From an uncultured Chlorobiaceae bacterium (GTDB lineage Bacteria > Bacteroidota > Chlorobiia > Chlorobiales > Chlorobiaceae), in NCBI GenBank assembly GCA_903839405.1, contig CAIMCD010000042.1:2518-66517 (forward strand): a stretch of DNA of 64,000 bases. The letters run 5' to 3'. The translations under genes were made by a program, and so were the position numbers. The notes below the pieces were generated by a model. It ran no database searches. It was not told the DNA's origin and worked only from the letters and a program-made list of their open reading frames with translations. This document shows, one piece after another, positions 20,343-60,084 of the stretch. Position 1 is the stretch's first letter, and every line of letters starts with the position of its first letter.

Positions 20343-20576
20343 ATGGATACGGCTCGCATTTTTCCATCCGGGCGGAGCCAAGCCGTTCGATTGCCTAAGG
20401 AGTACCGGTTTCAGGGAAGCGATGTGCTTATCAAACATTTCGGTAATGGTGTTCTGCTTTTGCCGATTGATAACTCGTGGGCCATGCTTGAAGCGGCTCT
20501 GGAGGAGTTTGAACCGGGATTTCAATTGAAAAGAGAGCAGCCTCCGGAACAGATGCGCGAGGAGATCGGGTCGTGA
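20343..20576 (+). CDS. vapB: VapB antitoxin (AbrB/SpoVT-type DNA-binding domain)
   Basis: ARIFPSGRSQAVRLPKEYRF motif; 4-nt GTGA overlap with the toxin. Confidence 0.92.
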   Translation: MDTARIFPSGRSQAVRLPKEYRFQGSDVLIKHFGNGVLLLPIDNSWAMLEAALEEFEPGFQLKREQPPEQMREEIGS

Positions 20577-20974
20577 GCTACATCCTCGATACCAATATCT
20601 GCATCTACATCATCAATGCACGCCCTCCGCATGTGCTGGAGCGGTTCCGCCAGGAGTGCATCGGCAATATCGGCCTTTCAAGTATTACCGCTGCTGAGCT
20701 GGTATTTGGTGTTGTGAAAAGCGGTTCCGAAAAAAACCGGCGGGCGCTTGAAATGTTTTTTGCCCCCCTTGAACTCTTCCCTTTTGATGCCTCGGCTATC
20801 TGGCATTATGGCGAAATACGAGCCGATCTTGAAAAAAGAGGTGAACCGATCGGATCACTTGACACCATGATTGCAGCGCACACCAGGTCACTGAATGCCG
20901 TGCTGGTAACCAATAACACCAAAGAGTTCAATCGGGTAAACGGTTTGAAGGTGGAGAATTGGGCTGCCTTATAG
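20573..20974 (+). CDS. vapC: VapC PIN-domain toxin
   Basis: YILDTNICI, SSITAAEL, IGSLDTMIAAH and LVTNNTKEF PIN motifs. Confidence 0.93.
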   Translation: MSYILDTNICIYIINARPPHVLERFRQECIGNIGLSSITAAELVFGVVKSGSEKNRRALEMFFAPLELFPFDASAIWHYGEIRADLEKRGEPIGSLDTMIAAHTRSLNAVLVTNNTKEFNRVNGLKVENWAAL

Positions 20975-54432: not shown

Positions 54433-55227
54433 ATGGCAGAAACCATTTTTTCCATACCTGACCTCCGTCTATGCTCATACGGCACCACCATTGCAGCGGG
54501 TGTGCTCCTCTGGATCCTGGAGGGGTTCAACCCCTTTTTCTCAACAGAGAAGCGCCGCGGTGCACACGCAAAACTCAACCTTTCTTTGGCCGCTCTCAAC
54601 CTGCTTGTCCTGCTCCCTTCGGGCATCCTCATGGCATTCATGCTGGAGTGGTCGAAAAACGCCTGGCCGGGAATCAGGATGCTGGCCCTTCCCCCCGCTC
54701 TCGAAGCGATCCTGCTGATCCTCTGTATCGACCTCTGGATGTACCTCTGGCATCGGCTCAACCATGAAACACCGTTTCTCTGGCGATTCCACTCCGTGCA
54801 TCACAGCGACTCCACGCTTGACGTCACCACCAGTTGGCGGTTCCACTCCATGGAGATCCTGATCTCGGAACTGCTGCGTATCCCCCTCTTCATGCTGATG
54901 GGTGCAGGTATCGAACACCTGCTGCTCTACTCGCTCCTCATGACGCCGGTCATTGAGTTCCACCACAGCAACATCGCCATTGCGCCCGCTTTGGATCGAC
55001 TGGCCCGGCTCATCATCCCCTCCCCCATGATGCACCGCCTGCACCACTCAAGAGAGAGGAGCGAGCGCAACTCCAACTACGGCAGCATGCTCTCCCTGTG
55101 GGATCGTCTCTTCGGCAGCTTTATGATGAAAGAAAATCTCGACGACCTCCGTATCGGTCTCGACCGTGAAAGCGACCCCGACAAGCAGCAACTCTTCGCC
55201 CTGCTCCAGAGGCCGTTCCAGCCGTAG
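54433..55227 (+). CDS. Fatty acid hydroxylase/sterol desaturase-family membrane enzyme
   Basis: His boxes HRLNH, HSVHH, FHHSN and HRLHH; NYGSMLSLWDRLFGS motif. Confidence 0.9.
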   Translation: MAETIFSIPDLRLCSYGTTIAAGVLLWILEGFNPFFSTEKRRGAHAKLNLSLAALNLLVLLPSGILMAFMLEWSKNAWPGIRMLALPPALEAILLILCIDLWMYLWHRLNHETPFLWRFHSVHHSDSTLDVTTSWRFHSMEILISELLRIPLFMLMGAGIEHLLLYSLLMTPVIEFHHSNIAIAPALDRLARLIIPSPMMHRLHHSRERSERNSNYGSMLSLWDRLFGSFMMKENLDDLRIGLDRESDPDKQQLFALLQRPFQP

Positions 55228-55232
55228 CAAGG

Positions 55233-55697
55233 CTACCGGCGCCGTTCGAGCATCGCGGCCCATATGGGATCGTAGCCGTCGATATCGTCCGTCAAACCTC
55301 TTGCATCAACGACCGGCCTGCCCTCGTTATACCAGCGAAAGATGCCGCCGCGCAGGTTACGAAAACTTTTGGCCCCTGCATTCCCGCACACACGCTCCAC
55401 CCGCTCAAGCAGTTCCGAGCTGCGCTGGCCGACCGAACAGTAAAAAACAAGGTGACGCCCCGCCACAAGGGCGGCGTAACGAGCCGCGAACTCTTCCGGG
55501 CCGCTCTCAGGATCAAGGCGTACTGCCGTGGCGATATGGCTCTTTTCATACTCCCCGGCGTTGCGAATGTCGAAGAGCAAGGGCGGTTCCGCTCCGGCAA
55601 GCATCGCCGCCAGTTCGTCCGTCGCCAGGTTTTCCACCCGGTGCGTCCGCTCGATCACGGTGATTGCAGCATCGAGCAGCCAATCAGCAGCGAACAT
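55233..55697 (-). CDS. Rhodanese-like domain protein
   Basis: LFDIR...EY..SHI, FYCSVGQRS active-site loop and NLRGGIF.W motifs. Confidence 0.85.
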   Translation of the reverse strand: MFAADWLLDAAITVIERTHRVENLATDELAAMLAGAEPPLLFDIRNAGEYEKSHIATAVRLDPESGPEEFAARYAALVAGRHLVFYCSVGQRSSELLERVERVCGNAGAKSFRNLRGGIFRWYNEGRPVVDARGLTDDIDGYDPIWAAMLERRR

Positions 55698-55702
55698 TGC
55701 CG

Positions 55703-56362
55703 CTATTTTTTTTCATCTCCATCGGCCAGCGAGGTAAGATAGCGGTGGGTATAGAGCTTCTCGACTTTTGAGAGTTCACGGAGCTGGTCAAAGGAGATCA
55801 TCGGGAGCCGGTATTGCTGACGAATCCGCTCAATCATTGCTATCCACAAATGCGCGGTCATCTCGGCATCAGCCAAAGCGCGGTGAAAGGTGCCACTCTC
55901 TGGGATGGCGAGATGTGACACCAGCGTCTGCAGCTTATGGTTCGGCGCATCCTGATTAATCCTTCTTGAGAGGAGCAGCGAGCAGCAACAGGCGCCTTCA
56001 TACGCCCGGTTCGCCCGCTTCAGCTCCGAATCCAGAAAGCGCTTGTCGAATGAGGCATTGTGCGCAACAATATTTCGACCTGCTATAAACCCTGAAAACT
56101 CGGCCATCACCTCTTCACACCGAGGCTGGCTTTTGAGCATCTCATTGGTGATACCGGTATAACCCTCGATAAACCGGCTGATCTTGAAACCGGGATTCAT
56201 CAGCTTTTGAAAACGCTCAACAATCACCCCCTGCTCCAGAAGCACCGCACCGATCTCGATAGCCCGGTCGCCATACTCGGGAGAGAGGCCCGTCGTCTCA
56301 AAATCCAGCACCACCACACTATCCGCCAACTTTGCCTGCATTATAGATTTACCACTTATCAT
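55703..56362 (-). CDS. Stand-alone DEDDh 3'-5' exonuclease (DnaQ-like)
   Basis: ExoI LDFETTG, ExoII AHNASFD and ExoIII HRALADA. Confidence 0.92.
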
Positions 56363-56539
56363 GACACCAGCAATAAATTAACCATCAATTTCCGTCCTCT
56401 CCTCCGCCTTTAAAATTCACAACCTTGCCCTGTTTTATTATAGAGGTATTACACCTATTTTAAAGAAGAAAGGGTATCAGCAAGAAAGATATGAATCGGC
56501 AAGTTTGTTTAAAACCCCCCAACGTCACCTTGAGATGCA

Positions 56540-59224
56540 ATGAGTAACAACATCAAAACCGATGAAGCTAATCGCCGAATACAAAAGGCTCTGAGAAAAA
56601 AATCAACAACGCTGGATTTATCAGGACTTGAATTACAATCCTTGCCGGACTCAATTGGGCAGTTAGCTCAGTTGGAGACGCTTGACCTTTCCAGTAACCA
56701 ACTCCAGCAGTTGCCGGACTCAATCGGGCAGTTAACTCAGTTGCGGAGGCTTTACCTTTTCAATAACCAGCTCCAGCAGTTGCCGGACTCAATCGGGCAG
56801 TTAACTCAGTTGCGGAGGCTTTACCTTTCCAATAACCAACTCCAGCAACTGCCGGAATCCATTGGGCAATTAACTCAACTGCAGGAGCTTTACCTTTCCA
56901 TCAACCAGCTCCAGCAATTGCCGGAATCCATTGGGCAGTTAGCTCAGTTGCAGAGGCTTTACCTTGCCGATAACCAACTCCAGCAGTTGCCGGACTCTAT
57001 TGGGCAGTTAGCGAAGTTGCAATCGCTTGACCTTGCCGATAACCAACTCCAGCAGTTGCCGGACTCTATTGGCCATTTAGCTCAGTTGGAGACGCTTGAC
57101 CTTTCCGATAACCAACTCCAGCAATTGCCAGACTCTTTGGTGAAACTGAAAAAGCTTGAACGACTCTATTTGCATGGGAATCAATCGCTTGATATCCCTC
57201 TCGAAATATTAGGCCCAACCTGGCAAGAAGTCAATGCCAATAAAGCTCAACCAGCAAATCCGGCCACTATCCTCGACTACTATTTCCGTATCCATGCTGC
57301 TCAGCGACCACTCAATGAAGCGAAGCTGATTCTGGTTGGCCGGGGTGGGGTTGGTAAAAGCTCTTTGGTAGATAAGCTATTATTCGATCAATTTGATGAA
57401 CACAAAAAAAAGACTGAAGGAATTGCTATTTCCGAGTGGCCGCTTCTGTTGCATGAATCGGAAACAATTCGTGTGAACCTCTGGGATTTCGGCGGTCAGG
57501 AGATCATGCATGCCACGCACCAGTTTTTTCTGACACAGCGCAGCCTCTACCTGCTGGTGCTCGAAGGGCGTCAAGGTGGCGAAGACGGCGATGCAGAGTA
57601 CTGGCTGAAACTGGTGGAGAGTTTTGGAACCGAGGATGATGGCAATATTGCTCCGGTGCTCATTGTTCTGAACAAATCTTCACTCAACCCGTTTGATTTG
57701 AACCGGTTGGCACTCACAAGGAAATATCCGTTCATCAAGGGCTTTCTTGTGACCGATTGCAATACCGGTCTTGGTATAAAGGAGTTACGCACATCAATCG
57801 AGCAGGAGATTGACCGCCTGCCCTATCTGCGCGCACCATTTCCGGCAAGCTGGTTTTCCATCAAGGACAAACTGGCATCCATGCAGGAGAGTTTTATCTC
57901 ATTTACAGAGTACAGGGCGCTCTGCAAGGAGGCTGGCGAAAAGGAGAATCAGGGTCAGGATTTTCTTGCATCGCACATGCACAACCTCGGAATTGCGCTG
58001 AATTACAAGGATGATCCCCGGTTGCGCGACCACCATGTGCTCAATCCGCGGTGGGTGACGAGCGGTGTTTATGCTCTGCTCAATGACCCGATGCTCCTGA
58101 AGCAAAATGGCGAGTTACGGCTTGACAATGTTGGCCGCATTCTTGATGCGGAGCGCTACCCCAGGCACATGCACCGATTTCTGATGGACTTGATGCGGAA
58201 ATTTGAACTCTGCTTCACCTTTACCGACGACGACACCCACTACCTGATTGCGGAGCTGCTGGGCAAGCAGGAACCAAAAGAGGCCGCAGAGTTTGAGCTT
58301 GCGAAATGCCTCAATTTTGAATACCGTTACACCGTGTTGCCGGAAGGCCTGCTGCCCCGTTTCATTGTTCGCACCCACTCGCTCAGTGAAGGCAATCCCC
58401 GGTGGCGGTCAGGCGTTATCCTTTCGTTTGAAGGGAACCGCGCCCTGGTACGGGCGGACGCAGAGGAAAAACGGGTCTTCATTGCGGTTGATGGCCCAAC
58501 AGCAAGCCGTCGGCGACTGCTGGCGGTTATCCGCTCCGATTTCGAGCGCATTCATGCATCCATCAGCAAACTCAAGCCGGAAGAGGTAGTGCCCATACCG
58601 GGTAAGCCTGATGTTTCAGTGCCTTATTCGGAGCTGCTTACCTTCGAAAAACAAAACATTACCAATTACCCAAAAGCGCATAAAGGAGATGTTCTTACCA
58701 TCCATGTCAATGAGCTGCTGAACGGAGTTGATCTGGCGGGCACAAGAAAAGAGTATCACTACAAAGCGGAAAAGCCGGGAGTAAAAATATTTTATTCATA
58801 CTCGCACAAGGATGAACCGTATCGGAACACACTGGAGACGCACCTTAAAATTCTGGAACGGACAGGAGTAATCGATCAATGGCATGACCGCAATATTGAG
58901 GCCGGTGATGACTGGAAAACGGCAATTGACGAGAACCTCGAACGCGCAGAGATCATCCTGCTCCTTGTCAGCGCTGATTTTATATTTTCAGACTACTGCT
59001 GGGAAAAAGAGATGAGCCGAGCACTCGAACGCCACAAGGCTGGCGAAGCAACCGTCATCCCGATAATCATCCGTGATGCAAACTGGAAATCGGCTCCTTT
59101 TGCCGCATTTCAGGCACTACCCAAGGATGCCAAAGCCGTAACCCTCTGGCCCAATGAAGACAGCGCATGGAAAAGTGTAAGCGAAGGAATTGAACGAGTA
59201 GTCAATACACGCACAAAGAAATGA
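56540..59224 (+). CDS. Roco-family protein with LRR-Roc-COR-TIR architecture
   Basis: 8 LRRs (aa 32-215); P-loop GRGGVGKS (K273); TEG; DFGGQ (D316); HATHQFFLT; COR motifs FPASWF, LNPRWVT and LPEGLLPRFIVR; C-terminal TIR (about aa 748-894: IFYSYSHKD, W.DR.I.AG.DW, VSADF..SDYC..KEM). Confidence 0.93.
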   Translation: MSNNIKTDEANRRIQKALRKKSTTLDLSGLELQSLPDSIGQLAQLETLDLSSNQLQQLPDSIGQLTQLRRLYLFNNQLQQLPDSIGQLTQLRRLYLSNNQLQQLPESIGQLTQLQELYLSINQLQQLPESIGQLAQLQRLYLADNQLQQLPDSIGQLAKLQSLDLADNQLQQLPDSIGHLAQLETLDLSDNQLQQLPDSLVKLKKLERLYLHGNQSLDIPLEILGPTWQEVNANKAQPANPATILDYYFRIHAAQRPLNEAKLILVGRGGVGKSSLVDKLLFDQFDEHKKKTEGIAISEWPLLLHESETIRVNLWDFGGQEIMHATHQFFLTQRSLYLLVLEGRQGGEDGDAEYWLKLVESFGTEDDGNIAPVLIVLNKSSLNPFDLNRLALTRKYPFIKGFLVTDCNTGLGIKELRTSIEQEIDRLPYLRAPFPASWFSIKDKLASMQESFISFTEYRALCKEAGEKENQGQDFLASHMHNLGIALNYKDDPRLRDHHVLNPRWVTSGVYALLNDPMLLKQNGELRLDNVGRILDAERYPRHMHRFLMDLMRKFELCFTFTDDDTHYLIAELLGKQEPKEAAEFELAKCLNFEYRYTVLPEGLLPRFIVRTHSLSEGNPRWRSGVILSFEGNRALVRADAEEKRVFIAVDGPTASRRRLLAVIRSDFERIHASISKLKPEEVVPIPGKPDVSVPYSELLTFEKQNITNYPKAHKGDVLTIHVNELLNGVDLAGTRKEYHYKAEKPGVKIFYSYSHKDEPYRNTLETHLKILERTGVIDQWHDRNIEAGDDWKTAIDENLERAEIILLLVSADFIFSDYCWEKEMSRALERHKAGEATVIPIIIRDANWKSAPFAAFQALPKDAKAVTLWPNEDSAWKSVSEGIERVVNTRTKK
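56633..57184 (+). repeat. Eight tandem 69-bp LRR-coding units
   Basis: Consensus LQQLPDSIGQLxQLxxLxLxxNQ; units 2 (56702-56770) and 3 (56771-56839) are identical at 67 of 69 nt by manual comparison. Confidence 0.93.
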
Positions 59225-59274
59225 GCTGGGGCTCGGCGTTCTTGAGGGGGGAAGAAGGGTGAGGCAGAAAAAAA

Positions 59275-59308
59275 TAAAGACTTACAAGCCGAAACCTGTA
59301 AGTCTTTA
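59275..59308 (-). terminator. Hairpin downstream of tRNA-Lys
   Basis: TAAAGACTTACA/TGTAAGTCTTTA 12-bp perfect stem followed by a T tract on the minus strand. Confidence 0.75.
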
Positions 59309-59315
59309 TGTAATA

Positions 59316-59390
59316 TGGTGCACCCGGGAGGACTCGAACCTCCAACCCATTGATTAAGAGTCAATTGCTCTACCATTGAGCCACGGGTGC
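59316..59390 (-). tRNA. tRNA-Lys(CTT)
   Basis: Reverse complement GCACCCG...ATTGA-CTCTTAA-TCAAT...GGTTCGAGTCC-CGGGTGC-ACCA gives a cloverleaf with anticodon CTT and encoded CCA. Confidence 0.95.
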
Positions 59391-59403
59391 AGAAATATGC
59401 AGA

Positions 59404-59754
59404 TTACTTTACTGGCGCTGCCGGAGTTAACGGTGCTGAAGGCACTGTTTTAGCCGGAGAGGCCGGAAGCACAGGCAGAGACTGCTGAAGAACACTTTTT
59501 GGTGCAACTTTGCCAGCATCTCTTCCGGGAAGAGTAAACTGGGCCAGGAAACAAAGCACCATCACCACTGCTGCAAGCACACCTGTTGTCTTGCTTAAAA
59601 AGTCACCGGTTCTTCTGACCCCGAGGGTCTGAACCGTACCAAGGCTGGCCATACCGCCAGTCAAACCGCTACCACTTTTCGGGCTCTGCAACAGAACTAC
59701 CCCGATCAGCATAATTGAAGCGAGCAAACCGACAATTACAATGAAAACATGCAT
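59404..59754 (-). CDS. secG: Preprotein translocase subunit SecG
   Basis: [25 protein letters not shown] and two TM helices. Confidence 0.93.
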
Positions 59755-59841
59755 TTCCAGCCGCTTTAATTAAGTTGTAAATATCGTATCTTCCTCTTGA
59801 AGATGGCCTTAATTTAGCAACTTTTAAAAGATATCCAAATC

Positions 59842-60084
59842 GTGATGGCTGAAGTCGGAAAAATAGTTGCGATTGCGGGTCTCGGCCTCACGCTTTTCGG
59901 CCTCTTGCTGATGCTTATGGCAAAAAATGGAAGCTTGGGCTACTTTGGATGGTTCGGCTCACTCCCTTTCGATTTTAAAATAGAGAAAGAGAACTTCCGC
60001 TTATATTTCCCTCTCGGCTCATCAGTGCTGCTCTCGCTTCTCCTCAGCCTGATCGGCTACCTTGTCAACAAATTTATCCGCTAA
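59842..60084 (+). CDS. Small membrane protein, DUF2905-like
   Basis: [23 protein letters not shown] pattern. Confidence 0.8.

What the first reader, a model, noticed from the sequence alone, without database searches (positions are those of the whole stretch)
56633..57184. LRR array with a near-invariant scaffold and mosaic variation at ligand-facing positions
Seen: the eight units share the LQQLPDSIGQL.QL scaffold almost base for base (units 2 and 3 are 67/69 nt identical). The xxLxLxx strand varies: ETLDLSS, RRLYLFN, RRLYLSN, QELYLSI, QRLYLAD, QSLDLAD, ETLDLSD, ERLYLHG. Variants recur combinatorially at codon level; for example unit 7 is unit 1's GAG ACG CTT GAC CTT TCC plus the GAT of units 5/6. 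Established: these x positions form the concave binding face of LRR solenoids, and high internal repeat conservation with variable binding residues is the signature of diversifying receptors such as Podospora HET-E/HET-D WD40 repeats. Inference: recombination or gene conversion between units reshuffles recognition specificity.
Basis: partly seen in the sequence, partly recalled or inferred. Interest (0 to 1): 0.72.

Follow-up and report, generated by a model that had tools for sequence, protein, structure and literature searches.

The report
Variable LRR sensor of bacterial Roco-TIR
The repeats are the leucine-rich-repeat "sensor" end of a single-gene LRR–GTPase–TIR protein of a green sulfur bacterium, a type already predicted to be an anti-invader receptor; its repeats vary almost only on the ligand-binding face, and in relatives the array gains, loses and diversifies units quickly.

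Summary
Window 56603-57223 encodes nine 23-residue LRRs. Six core units are 90% identical at scaffold residues and 27% at the five xxLxLxx positions. The scaffold is not "base for base": core units are 83% identical in DNA, with synonymous divergence near 0.45. The array is the N-terminus of an 894-aa LRR–Roc–COR-A–COR-B–TIR protein (56540-59224), a bacterial Roco whose TIR keeps its catalytic glutamate.

In this gene the concave-face codons change at about the synonymous rate (ratio 0.8-1.3), so positive selection is not shown here. A recombination signal exists (PHI p 0.007-0.015). Across 118 related arrays the same codons exceed the synonymous rate in young arrays (2.4-fold, CI 2.0-3.7; 1.4-fold in 21 arrays), while other x positions stay near 0.5.

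The closest Chlorobiaceae orthologs carry arrays of different length. Alleles that look identical elsewhere by eye differ by exactly 1-4 units, though short-read assembly could cause this.

The architecture, with "rapidly evolving N-terminal LRRs" and TIR effectors, was described computationally by Kaur et al. 2021. This is a new member of a known, untested kind. Anti-phage function is inferred.

The parts
56540..59224 (+). ORF of 894 aa: N-cap helix, 9 LRRs, Roc GTPase, COR-A, COR-B, TIR (bacterial Roco / AP-GTPase protein with a TIR effector)
   Evidence: ORF list. Pfam: COR-A 1.5e-39, COR-B 4.7e-32, Roc 3.2e-24, LRR_8 2.9e-32, TIR_2 1.3e-14. PADLOC ThsB1-like TIR 9.3e-57. PDB CtRoco 6HLU 7.8e-84.
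56603..57223 (+). LRR array, nine 69-nt units in the LxxLxLxxN register (unit k starts at 56603+69k). Unit 0 is a diverged N-cap unit. Unit 7 has a cap-type tail. Unit 8 is the C-cap.
   Evidence: AF2 strands at aa 24-26, 47-49, 70-76, 93-98, 116-121, 139-143, 162-164, 185-189, 208-212.
56672..57085 (+). Six core units (1-6): 83% nt identity, scaffold 90% aa identity, x positions (codons 2,3,5,7,8 of each unit) 27% aa identity
   Evidence: Scaffold dN 0.044, dS 0.48. x codons dN 0.56.
56702..56839 (+). Most recent duplication: two 69-nt copies, 67/69 identical (58-nt exact run)
56663..56692 (+). 30-nt tract (TTAGCTCAG + ETLDLS head) repeated exactly at 57077-57106, six units away
57077..57106 (+). 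Second copy of the 30-nt exact tract
57323..57679 (+). Roc GTPase domain (aa 262-380): P-loop GRGGVGKS 57338-57361, switch II DFGGQE 57485-57502, non-canonical G4 NKSS within 57668-57682
57842..58726 (+). COR-A (aa 435-574) and COR-B (aa 589-729) dimerisation module
   Evidence: Alignment to CtRoco over aa 42-715.
58787..59215 (+). TIR domain (aa 750-892). Conserved Glu824 at 59009-59011 aligns with the glutamate of AbTIR, PdTIR and Cat1.
59276..59307 (+). Inverted repeat (AAAGACTTACA...TGTAAGTCTTT) 52 nt after the stop codon, terminator-like
   Evidence: Sequence read. Not tested further.

Best explanation
The repeats are the ligand-sensing LRR solenoid of a stand-alone LRR–Roc–COR–TIR protein. 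This is a member of the prokaryotic Roco ('AP-GTPase') conflict systems.

Shown: the domain order, an intact P-loop and switch II, an intact TIR glutamate, and variation confined to the strand-face positions of an otherwise constrained scaffold.

Shown for the family: arrays turn over by gain and loss of whole 69-nt units. In recently duplicated arrays the strand-face codons change faster than synonymous sites, which indicates diversifying selection on the binding surface.

Inferred mechanism: the concave face binds a molecule of an invader, most likely a phage protein. Binding relieves the autoinhibitory packing of the LRR on Roc-COR that is seen in CtRoco. The GTPase/COR module changes its oligomeric state. 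That brings TIR domains together into an active NADase, and NAD+ loss or a TIR-made signal stops the infected cell.

The array in this window is a middle-aged example. It has one recent unit duplication and a detectable recombination signal, and its binding-face codons evolve at roughly the neutral rate.
For: Architecture.

Catalytic residues: G267/G272/K273, D316-Q320 and E824 are at least 95% conserved in 153 relatives. E824 aligns with the Glu of the solved NADase TIRs AbTIR and PdTIR and of Cat1.

Variation at the x codons: (p = 0.0037). Structural placement.

Recombination in this gene: PHI p = 0.007-0.015; exact tracts.

Family selection test, cross-validated so that array choice and the synonymous yardstick use different codons: pN(x)/pS is 2.43 [1.96-3.70] for n=7, 1.44 [1.12-1.92] for n=21 and 1.29 [1.08-1.58] for n=38. 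Other x positions stay at about 0.5 throughout. In the 10 arrays with pS below 0.25, all 10 have pN(x) above pS. Hot positions are 3, 5, 7 and 8.

Turnover: orthologs 80-89% identical after the array have N-terminal parts of 103, 150, 243, 269, 306 and 310 aa. Internal units have no colinear orthologs, while the C-cap unit does. L002 and L003 hold 100%-identical units. Members of the same 90% clusters differ by +23, -92, +46 and -69 aa, all inside the array.

Conflict-type context: no conserved partner among 160 loci. The Chlorobiaceae orthologs sit at different loci, beside a TIR_2 protein plus a terminase remnant, a Type ISP restriction enzyme, and an 861-aa DNA methylase. Some relatives are fused to AAA_15/AAA_21 ATPases.

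Literature: Kaur et al. 2021 describe exactly this class as predicted counter-invader systems.
Against: No experiment supports defence for any member that I could find.

In this gene, dN at the x codons is not above dS (0.8-1.3).

In this window the gene lies among housekeeping genes (exonuclease, rhodanese, tRNA-Lys, secG, hisB) with no other defence gene adjacent and no att-like repeat.

Unit-number differences among near-identical alleles come from short-read metagenome assemblies, which can collapse or expand tandem repeats.

The Roc G4 motif lacks the canonical Asp (NKSS), so nucleotide use is uncertain.

The best-studied relative, CtRoco, has no TIR and no known biological role.
Confidence: 0.6

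Rival explanations
1. This is an ordinary LRR pattern with no active diversification. The x positions of every LRR are unconstrained by definition. This array would be a moderately old tandem duplication whose scaffold is held by purifying selection and whose x codons drift neutrally. The codon 'mosaic' would be recurrent mutation within a small allowed alphabet (D/Y, S/A, D/N).
For: In this gene the x-codon dN/dS is 0.8-1.3 and scaffold omega is 0.09, with dS of 0.43-0.5 among units. Four-gamete violations occur between adjacent codons, closer than plausible conversion tracts. Within-gene best unit matches (0.84-0.90) barely exceed matches to L001 units (0.80-0.87).
Against: In the family, x codons exceed the synonymous rate in young arrays while other non-consensus x positions stay at 0.5. 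PHI is significant. There is a 67/69 duplicate and a 30-nt exact tract across six units. Unit number differs among close relatives.
Confidence: 0.25
2. This is a housekeeping signalling GTPase rather than an immune receptor. Like CtRoco, the protein would be a cellular switch whose LRR binds a host partner, with the TIR acting as a protein-interaction scaffold.
For: Strong homology to CtRoco, for which no immune role is known (review). Housekeeping surroundings in this window.
Against: The TIR keeps the catalytic Glu and matches a Thoeris ThsB profile at 9e-57. The gene is at a different locus in each close relative, often beside restriction or TIR genes. Fast evolution of the binding face is not expected for a fixed host partner.
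Confidence: 0.12
3. This is an assembly artefact. The array, or the unit-number differences among relatives, would result from mis-assembly of tandem repeats in metagenome assemblies.
For: All relatives with different unit numbers are metagenome assemblies. L002 and L003 have 100%-identical units, in L003 as part of a two-unit (138-nt) repeat. That length is near or beyond what short-read assemblers can count (my judgement).
Against: For the window array no two units share more than a 58-nt exact run. Unitigs from four other runs tile 56327-57814 with zero differences. The reading frame is intact through all arrays. Arrays differ in sequence as well as in number.
Confidence: 0.1

Closest known systems
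Prokaryotic AP-GTPase (Roc)–COR conflict systems with N-terminal LRRs and C-terminal effectors (Kaur, Iyer, Burroughs, Aravind, eLife 2021, PMC8195603)
   Same: Same domain order. [quoted passage not shown]
   Different: Nothing architectural differs. That paper gives no per-codon analysis in the passages I read, and no experiment was found in the library. What is added here is the quantification: concave-face dN above dS in young arrays, and whole-unit indels among close alleles.
Chlorobaculum tepidum Roco (CtRoco; PDB 6HLU, 8R4B), the bacterial model for LRRK2
   Same: LRR–Roc–COR-A–COR-B, E 7.8e-84 over aa 42-715, same bacterial family. Its LRR is also internally repetitive.
   Different: CtRoco's aligned LRRs read NQIxDIxPLAxL, unlike this NQLQQLPDSIGQL scaffold. 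It has no TIR and no known cellular role. Its G4 is NKID, whereas here it is NKSS.
High-internal-conservation repeats of fungal NLRs (Podospora HET-E/HET-D WD40) and bacterial NLRs (WD/TPR)
   Same: Near-identical tandem units, hypervariable binding positions under positive selection, and unit reshuffling and number polymorphism (literature). The family data here show the same three features.
   Different: The repeat type is LRR, not WD/TPR/ANK. The cited survey says prokaryotic NLRs typically lack LRRs. The switch is a Roc GTPase, not a STAND ATPase. This window's array is only 83% identical in DNA.
Brown-alga LRR-ROCO genes with exon shuffling (Zambounis 2012; Teng 2024, PMC11378527)
   Same: LRR-Roc-COR with 23-residue LRR units that are duplicated and shuffled and under diversifying selection. 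Proposed as immune receptors.
   Different: In the algae each LRR is a separate exon and shuffling or alternative splicing is the proposed route. Here there is one continuous ORF, and the route must be unequal recombination or slippage.
Plant TIR-NBS-LRR resistance proteins
   Same: LRR sensor with positive selection at xxLxLxx, an NTP switch, and a TIR NADase effector (my own knowledge of the family).
   Different: The domain order is reversed (TIR at the C-terminus), and Roc-COR replaces NB-ARC. This is analogy, not homology of the whole protein.
Thoeris (ThsB TIR + ThsA effector)
   Same: The TIR matches PADLOC ThsB1 at 9.3e-57.
   Different: No ThsA-type partner next to the gene, and no conserved neighbour in 160 loci. 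The TIR is fused to its own sensor and switch.

Membership tests
Roco proteins | Roc (Ras-like) GTPase domain directly followed by a COR domain | tested here: met
   Pfam Roc 3.2e-24 (aa 262-380), COR-A 1.5e-39 (435-574), COR-B 4.7e-32 (589-729). CtRoco 6HLU E 7.8e-84.
Roco proteins | Canonical G motifs (P-loop GxxxxGK[ST], DxxGQ, NKxD) | tested here: inconclusive
   P-loop and DFGGQ are at least 95% conserved. N378 and K379 are conserved, but the Asp of NKxD is absent here (NKSS) and in the consensus of 153 relatives.
Prokaryotic AP-GTPase/COR conflict systems (Kaur et al. 2021) | N-terminal rapidly evolving LRRs + Roc-COR + C-terminal effector domain such as TIR | tested here: met
   Domain order. 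LRR turnover and fast x codons in the family. Description in the paper.
Prokaryotic AP-GTPase/COR conflict systems (Kaur et al. 2021) | Actual counter-invader activity | not testable with these tools
   No experimental report found. Context evidence only.
Enzymatic TIR (NADase) domains | Conserved catalytic glutamate | tested here: met
   E824 is at least 95% conserved. It aligns with the Glu of AbTIR 'NYEL', PdTIR 'QKEL' and Cat1 'DEL'. That these are the catalytic residues is from my own knowledge.
Thoeris | ThsB TIR gene adjacent to a ThsA-type effector gene | tested here: not met
   No such neighbour in the window. No conserved neighbour family in 160 loci; the largest cluster covers 8 loci and is housekeeping.
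High-internal-conservation (HIC) NLR repeats | Repeat units about 80-90% identical to each other | tested here: inconclusive
   Core units are 83% identical in nt but 76% in aa. One pair is 97% identical. Orthologs L001-L003 reach 90-100%.
High-internal-conservation (HIC) NLR repeats | Positive selection at ligand-facing positions | tested here: inconclusive
   This gene gives a ratio of 0.8-1.3. Young arrays in the family give 1.3-2.4 with confidence intervals above 1.
High-internal-conservation (HIC) NLR repeats | STAND (NACHT/NB-ARC) NTPase | tested here: not met
   The NTPase is a Roc GTPase.
High-internal-conservation (HIC) NLR repeats | Unit-number polymorphism among alleles | tested here: inconclusive
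   Seen in the ortholog clusters, with differences of +23, -92, +46 and -69 aa, but these are short-read assemblies. Not readable for this gene.
Diversity-generating retroelements / cassette systems (DGR, VLR-like) | Template repeat or silent cassettes outside the gene, plus a reverse transcriptase for DGR | tested here: not met
   The unit motif occurs only in the array within the 64 kb. The N-terminal sequences of the window's larger ORFs looked like housekeeping genes, but no domain scan for a reverse transcriptase was run. Differences are not adenine-specific.
Internalin A (the name given by JGI to many relatives) | Secreted, surface-anchored LRR protein with an inter-repeat Ig-like region | tested here: not met
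   The N-terminus is a predicted helix, not a signal peptide. The LRRs are followed by Roc-COR-TIR. The label reflects LRR similarity only.

The most novel reading that the evidence does not exclude
Bacterial LRR–Roc–COR–TIR proteins are genuine LRR-based anti-phage receptors. On this reading, their recognition surface is renewed by whole-unit duplication, deletion and exchange plus positive selection at strand positions 3, 5, 7 and 8. That would make them a prokaryotic counterpart of plant TNLs and fungal HIC NLRs. It would also imply that the Roco lineage leading to LRRK2 and DAPK began as an immune sensor, and that specificity could be re-programmed by swapping x residues.
Probability: 0.5. 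Interest if true: 0.7.

Novelty: new member of a known kind. Interest (0 to 1): 0.5.

Why it matters
Roco proteins are studied intensively because of LRRK2, yet the 2019 review I read lists no physiological function for a bacterial member, and in it prokaryotic Rocos are only LRR-RocCOR. This family has at least 7,548 database matches and carries a catalytically intact TIR. It also shows the evolutionary signature of an immune receptor on its LRR face.

If it is confirmed as defence, three things follow:
- Bacterial Rocos would have a function.
- LRR-based pathogen sensing would extend to bacteria, where NLR-like sensors are reported to use WD/TPR repeats.
- There would be a simple single-gene system to study how a Roc-COR switch couples ligand binding to effector activation.

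For this particular window the value is modest. It is one middle-aged example of a class already predicted in the literature.

Tried and rejected
1. Strain-level comparison of this array. No exact copy of the protein is on record. The genome and metagenome scans gave no relative above 74% and 64% identity respectively. Four lake-metagenome runs hold the sequence at only 2-7x, and their contigs break inside the repeats. So unit number in sister strains could not be read.

2. DNA for the closest allele P0004 and for P0002's contig was not available. L003 supplied P0002's DNA instead.

3. Search for a partner gene. All-against-all clustering of 1,002 neighbouring ORFs from the fetched loci found none.

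4. Island boundaries. No att-like direct repeat of tRNA-Lys was found. Gene GC is 49.8% against 51.7% for the window.

5. Silent cassettes or a DGR template: none in the window.

6. Literature on an experimentally tested Roco-TIR defence: none found.

7. A first selection test that picked 'young' arrays by the same synonymous sites used as the yardstick is biased upward. I replaced it with a split-codon, cross-validated version and rely on that.

8. All-pairs dN/dS including the diverged cap unit 0 gives 0.81. Excluding caps gives 1.1-1.3. I report the range rather than choosing.
Full report
**What is there**

The finding lies in one ORF, window 56540-59224 (+), of 894 aa. Pfam places these domains:
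- LRRs at the N-terminus
- a Roc GTPase at aa 262-380
- COR-A at 435-574
- COR-B at 589-729
- a TIR_2 domain at 750-854

PADLOC matches aa 749-892 to a Thoeris ThsB1 TIR profile at 9.3e-57. The best solved relative is the Chlorobaculum tepidum Roco protein (6HLU, 8R4B), with E 7.8e-84 over aa 42-715. The closest genomic relatives are Chlorobiaceae MAGs, and the rest of the window is ordinary chromosome. So this is a green-sulfur-bacterium Roco protein with a C-terminal TIR.

**The observation**

Tandem Repeats Finder reports period 69, 7.2 copies and 86% matches at 56642-57135. In the LxxLxLxxN register the array is nine units starting at 56603+69k. Unit 0 is a diverged N-cap, units 1-6 are the core, unit 7 has a cap-type tail, and unit 8 is the C-cap.

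In the core units the scaffold is 90% identical in amino acids and the five xxLxLxx positions are 27% identical. All 5 x positions vary, against 4 of 18 others (p = 0.0037).

An AlphaFold2 model of aa 1-260 has pLDDT 82, and above 90 across most of the array. It places the strands at unit positions 3-5 and the short helices at positions 16-20. The variable residues are therefore on the strand (concave) side.

The scaffold is not conserved 'almost base for base'. Core units are 83% identical in DNA. 13 of the 18 scaffold codons have synonymous variants among units 1-7 (my count from the codon table), and synonymous divergence among units 1-6 is 0.48 at scaffold codons, with omega 0.09. The amino-acid scaffold is held mainly by purifying selection. 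Only one unit pair is a recent copy.

**Selection in this gene**

By Nei-Gojobori counts, dN at the x codons is 0.54-0.60. Relative to dS of the whole unit the ratio depends on the units compared:

| Units compared | Ratio |
|---|---|
| units 0-7 | 0.81 |
| units 1-7 | 1.08 |
| units 1-6 | 1.30 |

A spanning-tree version gives 0.79, and a split-codon version gives about 1.0-1.15.

Positive selection is not demonstrated either. The x codons of this array change at about the neutral rate.

**Recombination in this gene**

44 of 91 informative site pairs are incompatible. The minimum number of recombination events is 2-4. The PHI permutation test gives p = 0.007-0.015 in either register.

Self-alignment at unit offsets shows a 58-nt exact run at offset 1. 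It also shows a 30-nt exact run, 56663-56692 = 57077-57106, joining the first and last variable heads six units apart.

This supports exchange or unequal crossing-over between units. The codon-by-codon 'combinatorial' pattern within 21 nt is a different matter. It can equally come from recurrent change within a small allowed alphabet.

**The family**

A protein search returned at least 7,548 matches at E of 1e-10 or better. The 120 best hits listed all carry LRR, Roc, COR and TIR Pfam domains, come from many phyla, and range from about 800 to 1,400 aa.

I fetched 161 loci with DNA. I located the gene in each, detected 23-codon units with an HMM, and obtained 118 arrays of at least 3 units.

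Within arrays, pN at x codons is 0.40-0.57 whatever the age of the array. pS ranges from 0.08 to above 0.9. In the 10 arrays with pS below 0.25, all 10 have pN(x) above pS.

The per-position profile of young arrays singles out positions 3, 5, 7 and 8 (pN 0.42-0.49 against pS of about 0.25). Position 2 and the other non-consensus positions are much quieter.

Choosing arrays by low pS biases such ratios upward, so I repeated the test with three safeguards:
- Unit pairs and array choice were based on one half of the scaffold codons.
- The synonymous yardstick was taken from the other half.
- Confidence intervals came from a bootstrap over arrays.

| Arrays selected | pN(x)/pS | 95% CI |
|---|---|---|
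| 7 youngest | 2.43 | 1.96-3.70 |
| 21 | 1.44 | 1.12-1.92 |
| 38 | 1.29 | 1.08-1.58 |
| all 118 (saturation) | 0.89 | 0.82-0.97 |

The other x positions stay at about 0.5 throughout. This is family-level evidence for diversifying selection on the strand face.

**Turnover among close relatives**

Roc-COR-TIR of the window gene is 82-85% identical in amino acids to L001, L002 and L003, with dS 0.81-0.84 and dN about 0.09-0.10. Yet the N-terminal parts of the relatives compared measure 103, 150, 243 (this gene), 269, 306 and 310 aa.

The C-cap unit finds its best match in the last unit of an ortholog. Internal units have no colinear partners and usually match best within their own gene. L002 and L003 contain 100%-identical units, arranged in L003 as a two-unit (46-aa) repeat.

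In the 90%-identity clusters of these orthologs, members differ by +23, -92, +46 and -69 aa. Reading the sequences by eye, the differences are whole units inside the array, and I saw no other differences in the rest of the proteins.

Caveat: all of these are short-read metagenome assemblies, which can miscount tandem repeats. For the window array the risk is low. No exact run exceeds 58 nt, and unitigs from four other runs tile the array without a mismatch.

**Context and likely function**

No neighbouring gene family is conserved across the fetched loci, so the protein is a single-gene system. The Chlorobiaceae orthologs lie at different loci:
- this window: between a DnaQ-type exonuclease and tRNA-Lys/secG
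- L001: beside a TIR_2 protein, DUF4145 and terminase remnants
- L002: after an 861-aa DNA methylase and an HTH protein
- L003 and P0004: after a Type ISP restriction enzyme

Abundant related populations in the same lakes are laid on the flanks at 85% identity or more, but not on 55.5-59.2 kb. Some relatives carry a C-terminal AAA_15/AAA_21 ATPase.

The P-loop, switch II and TIR Glu824 are at least 95% conserved. Glu824 aligns with the glutamate of the solved NADase TIRs.

From this, and from what is established for CtRoco and for TIR enzymes (my own knowledge), I infer the following sequence:
1. The LRR packs against Roc-COR and moves with the nucleotide state.
2. TIR enzymes become active on oligomerisation.
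3. So ligand binding on the LRR face leads to a Roc/COR state change, then TIR assembly, then NAD+ consumption or signal production, then arrest of the infected cell.

None of these steps was tested.

**Comparison with what is known**

Kaur et al. (eLife 2021) describe prokaryotic 'AP-GTPase' plus COR proteins. [quoted passage not shown] This gene is a member of that class.

The evolutionary mode matches the high-internal-conservation repeats of fungal and bacterial NLRs and the LRR exon shuffling of brown-alga ROCO genes. The differences are an LRR rather than WD/TPR repeats, a Roc rather than a STAND switch, and a continuous ORF.

It is not Thoeris, because there is no ThsA partner. It is not a DGR or cassette system. 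It is not an internalin, despite that label on many relatives.

**Verdict**

The class is already described computationally, though I found no experimental test of it. I rate this a new member of a known kind, of moderate interest.

Noticed in passing
window 57668-57682 (aa 377-381): The Roc G4 motif reads NKSS. N378 and K379 are at least 95% conserved in 153 relatives, but the Asp of the canonical NKxD is absent across this clade (consensus NKIKEHPFD). CtRoco has NKID. Nucleotide specificity may differ.
   Followed up: partly
window 56315-56647, run X2: One lake-metagenome run holds a second allele of the upstream region and N-terminus at similar depth (about 4.5x). It has 14 substitutions and a 6-nt deletion at 56558, and its contig ends inside the first LRR.
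   Followed up: partly
window 55220-59270 versus its flanks: Related Chlorobiaceae populations at about 500x depth in the same lakes are laid on the flanks (55000-55220, 59176-59870) at 85% identity or more, but not on the segment holding rhodanese, exonuclease and the Roco-TIR gene. Their contigs diverge at 55207/55219 and 59268/59329. This may be a variable segment next to tRNA-Lys, but no att repeat was found.
   Followed up: partly
L003 8001-10760 (= P0002); P0123, P0125: This ortholog has a two-unit (138-nt, 46-aa) super-repeat with 100%-identical copies. Cluster members differ by exactly four units and by single residues in the repeats.
   Followed up: yes
P0053, P0057, P0058, P0104, P0108 (relatives): Some LRR-Roc-COR-TIR relatives carry an extra C-terminal AAA_15/AAA_21/AAA_23-type ATPase. 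P0053 combines this with only about two LRR units.
   Followed up: no
Relatives from JGI: Dozens of family members are labelled 'internalin A', and a few 'serine/threonine protein kinase' or 'pats1'. These names reflect LRR or Roco similarity only. No kinase or internalin features are present in this protein.
   Followed up: partly
window 59276-59307: A perfect 11-bp inverted repeat (AAAGACTTACA / TGTAAGTCTTT) lies between the stop codon and tRNA-Lys (59316-59390, minus strand). It looks like a terminator shared by the convergent genes.
   Followed up: no
window 20573-20974 (+): This ORF of 133 aa begins VSYILDTNICIYIINARPP..., which looks like a PIN/VapC-type toxin by eye. No domain search was run.
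   Followed up: no
window 56672-57154, unit codons 4, 6, 9, 11, 12: In units 1-7 the codons for L4, L6, N9, L11 and Q12 are invariant even at synonymous sites (CTT, CTT, AAC, CTC, CAG). The helix-side half of the unit carries most of the synonymous differences: about 4.2 against 1.35 per pair (my sum of the per-position values). So the half holding the hypervariable codons looks younger at silent sites. The numbers are too small to test in one gene.
   Followed up: partly
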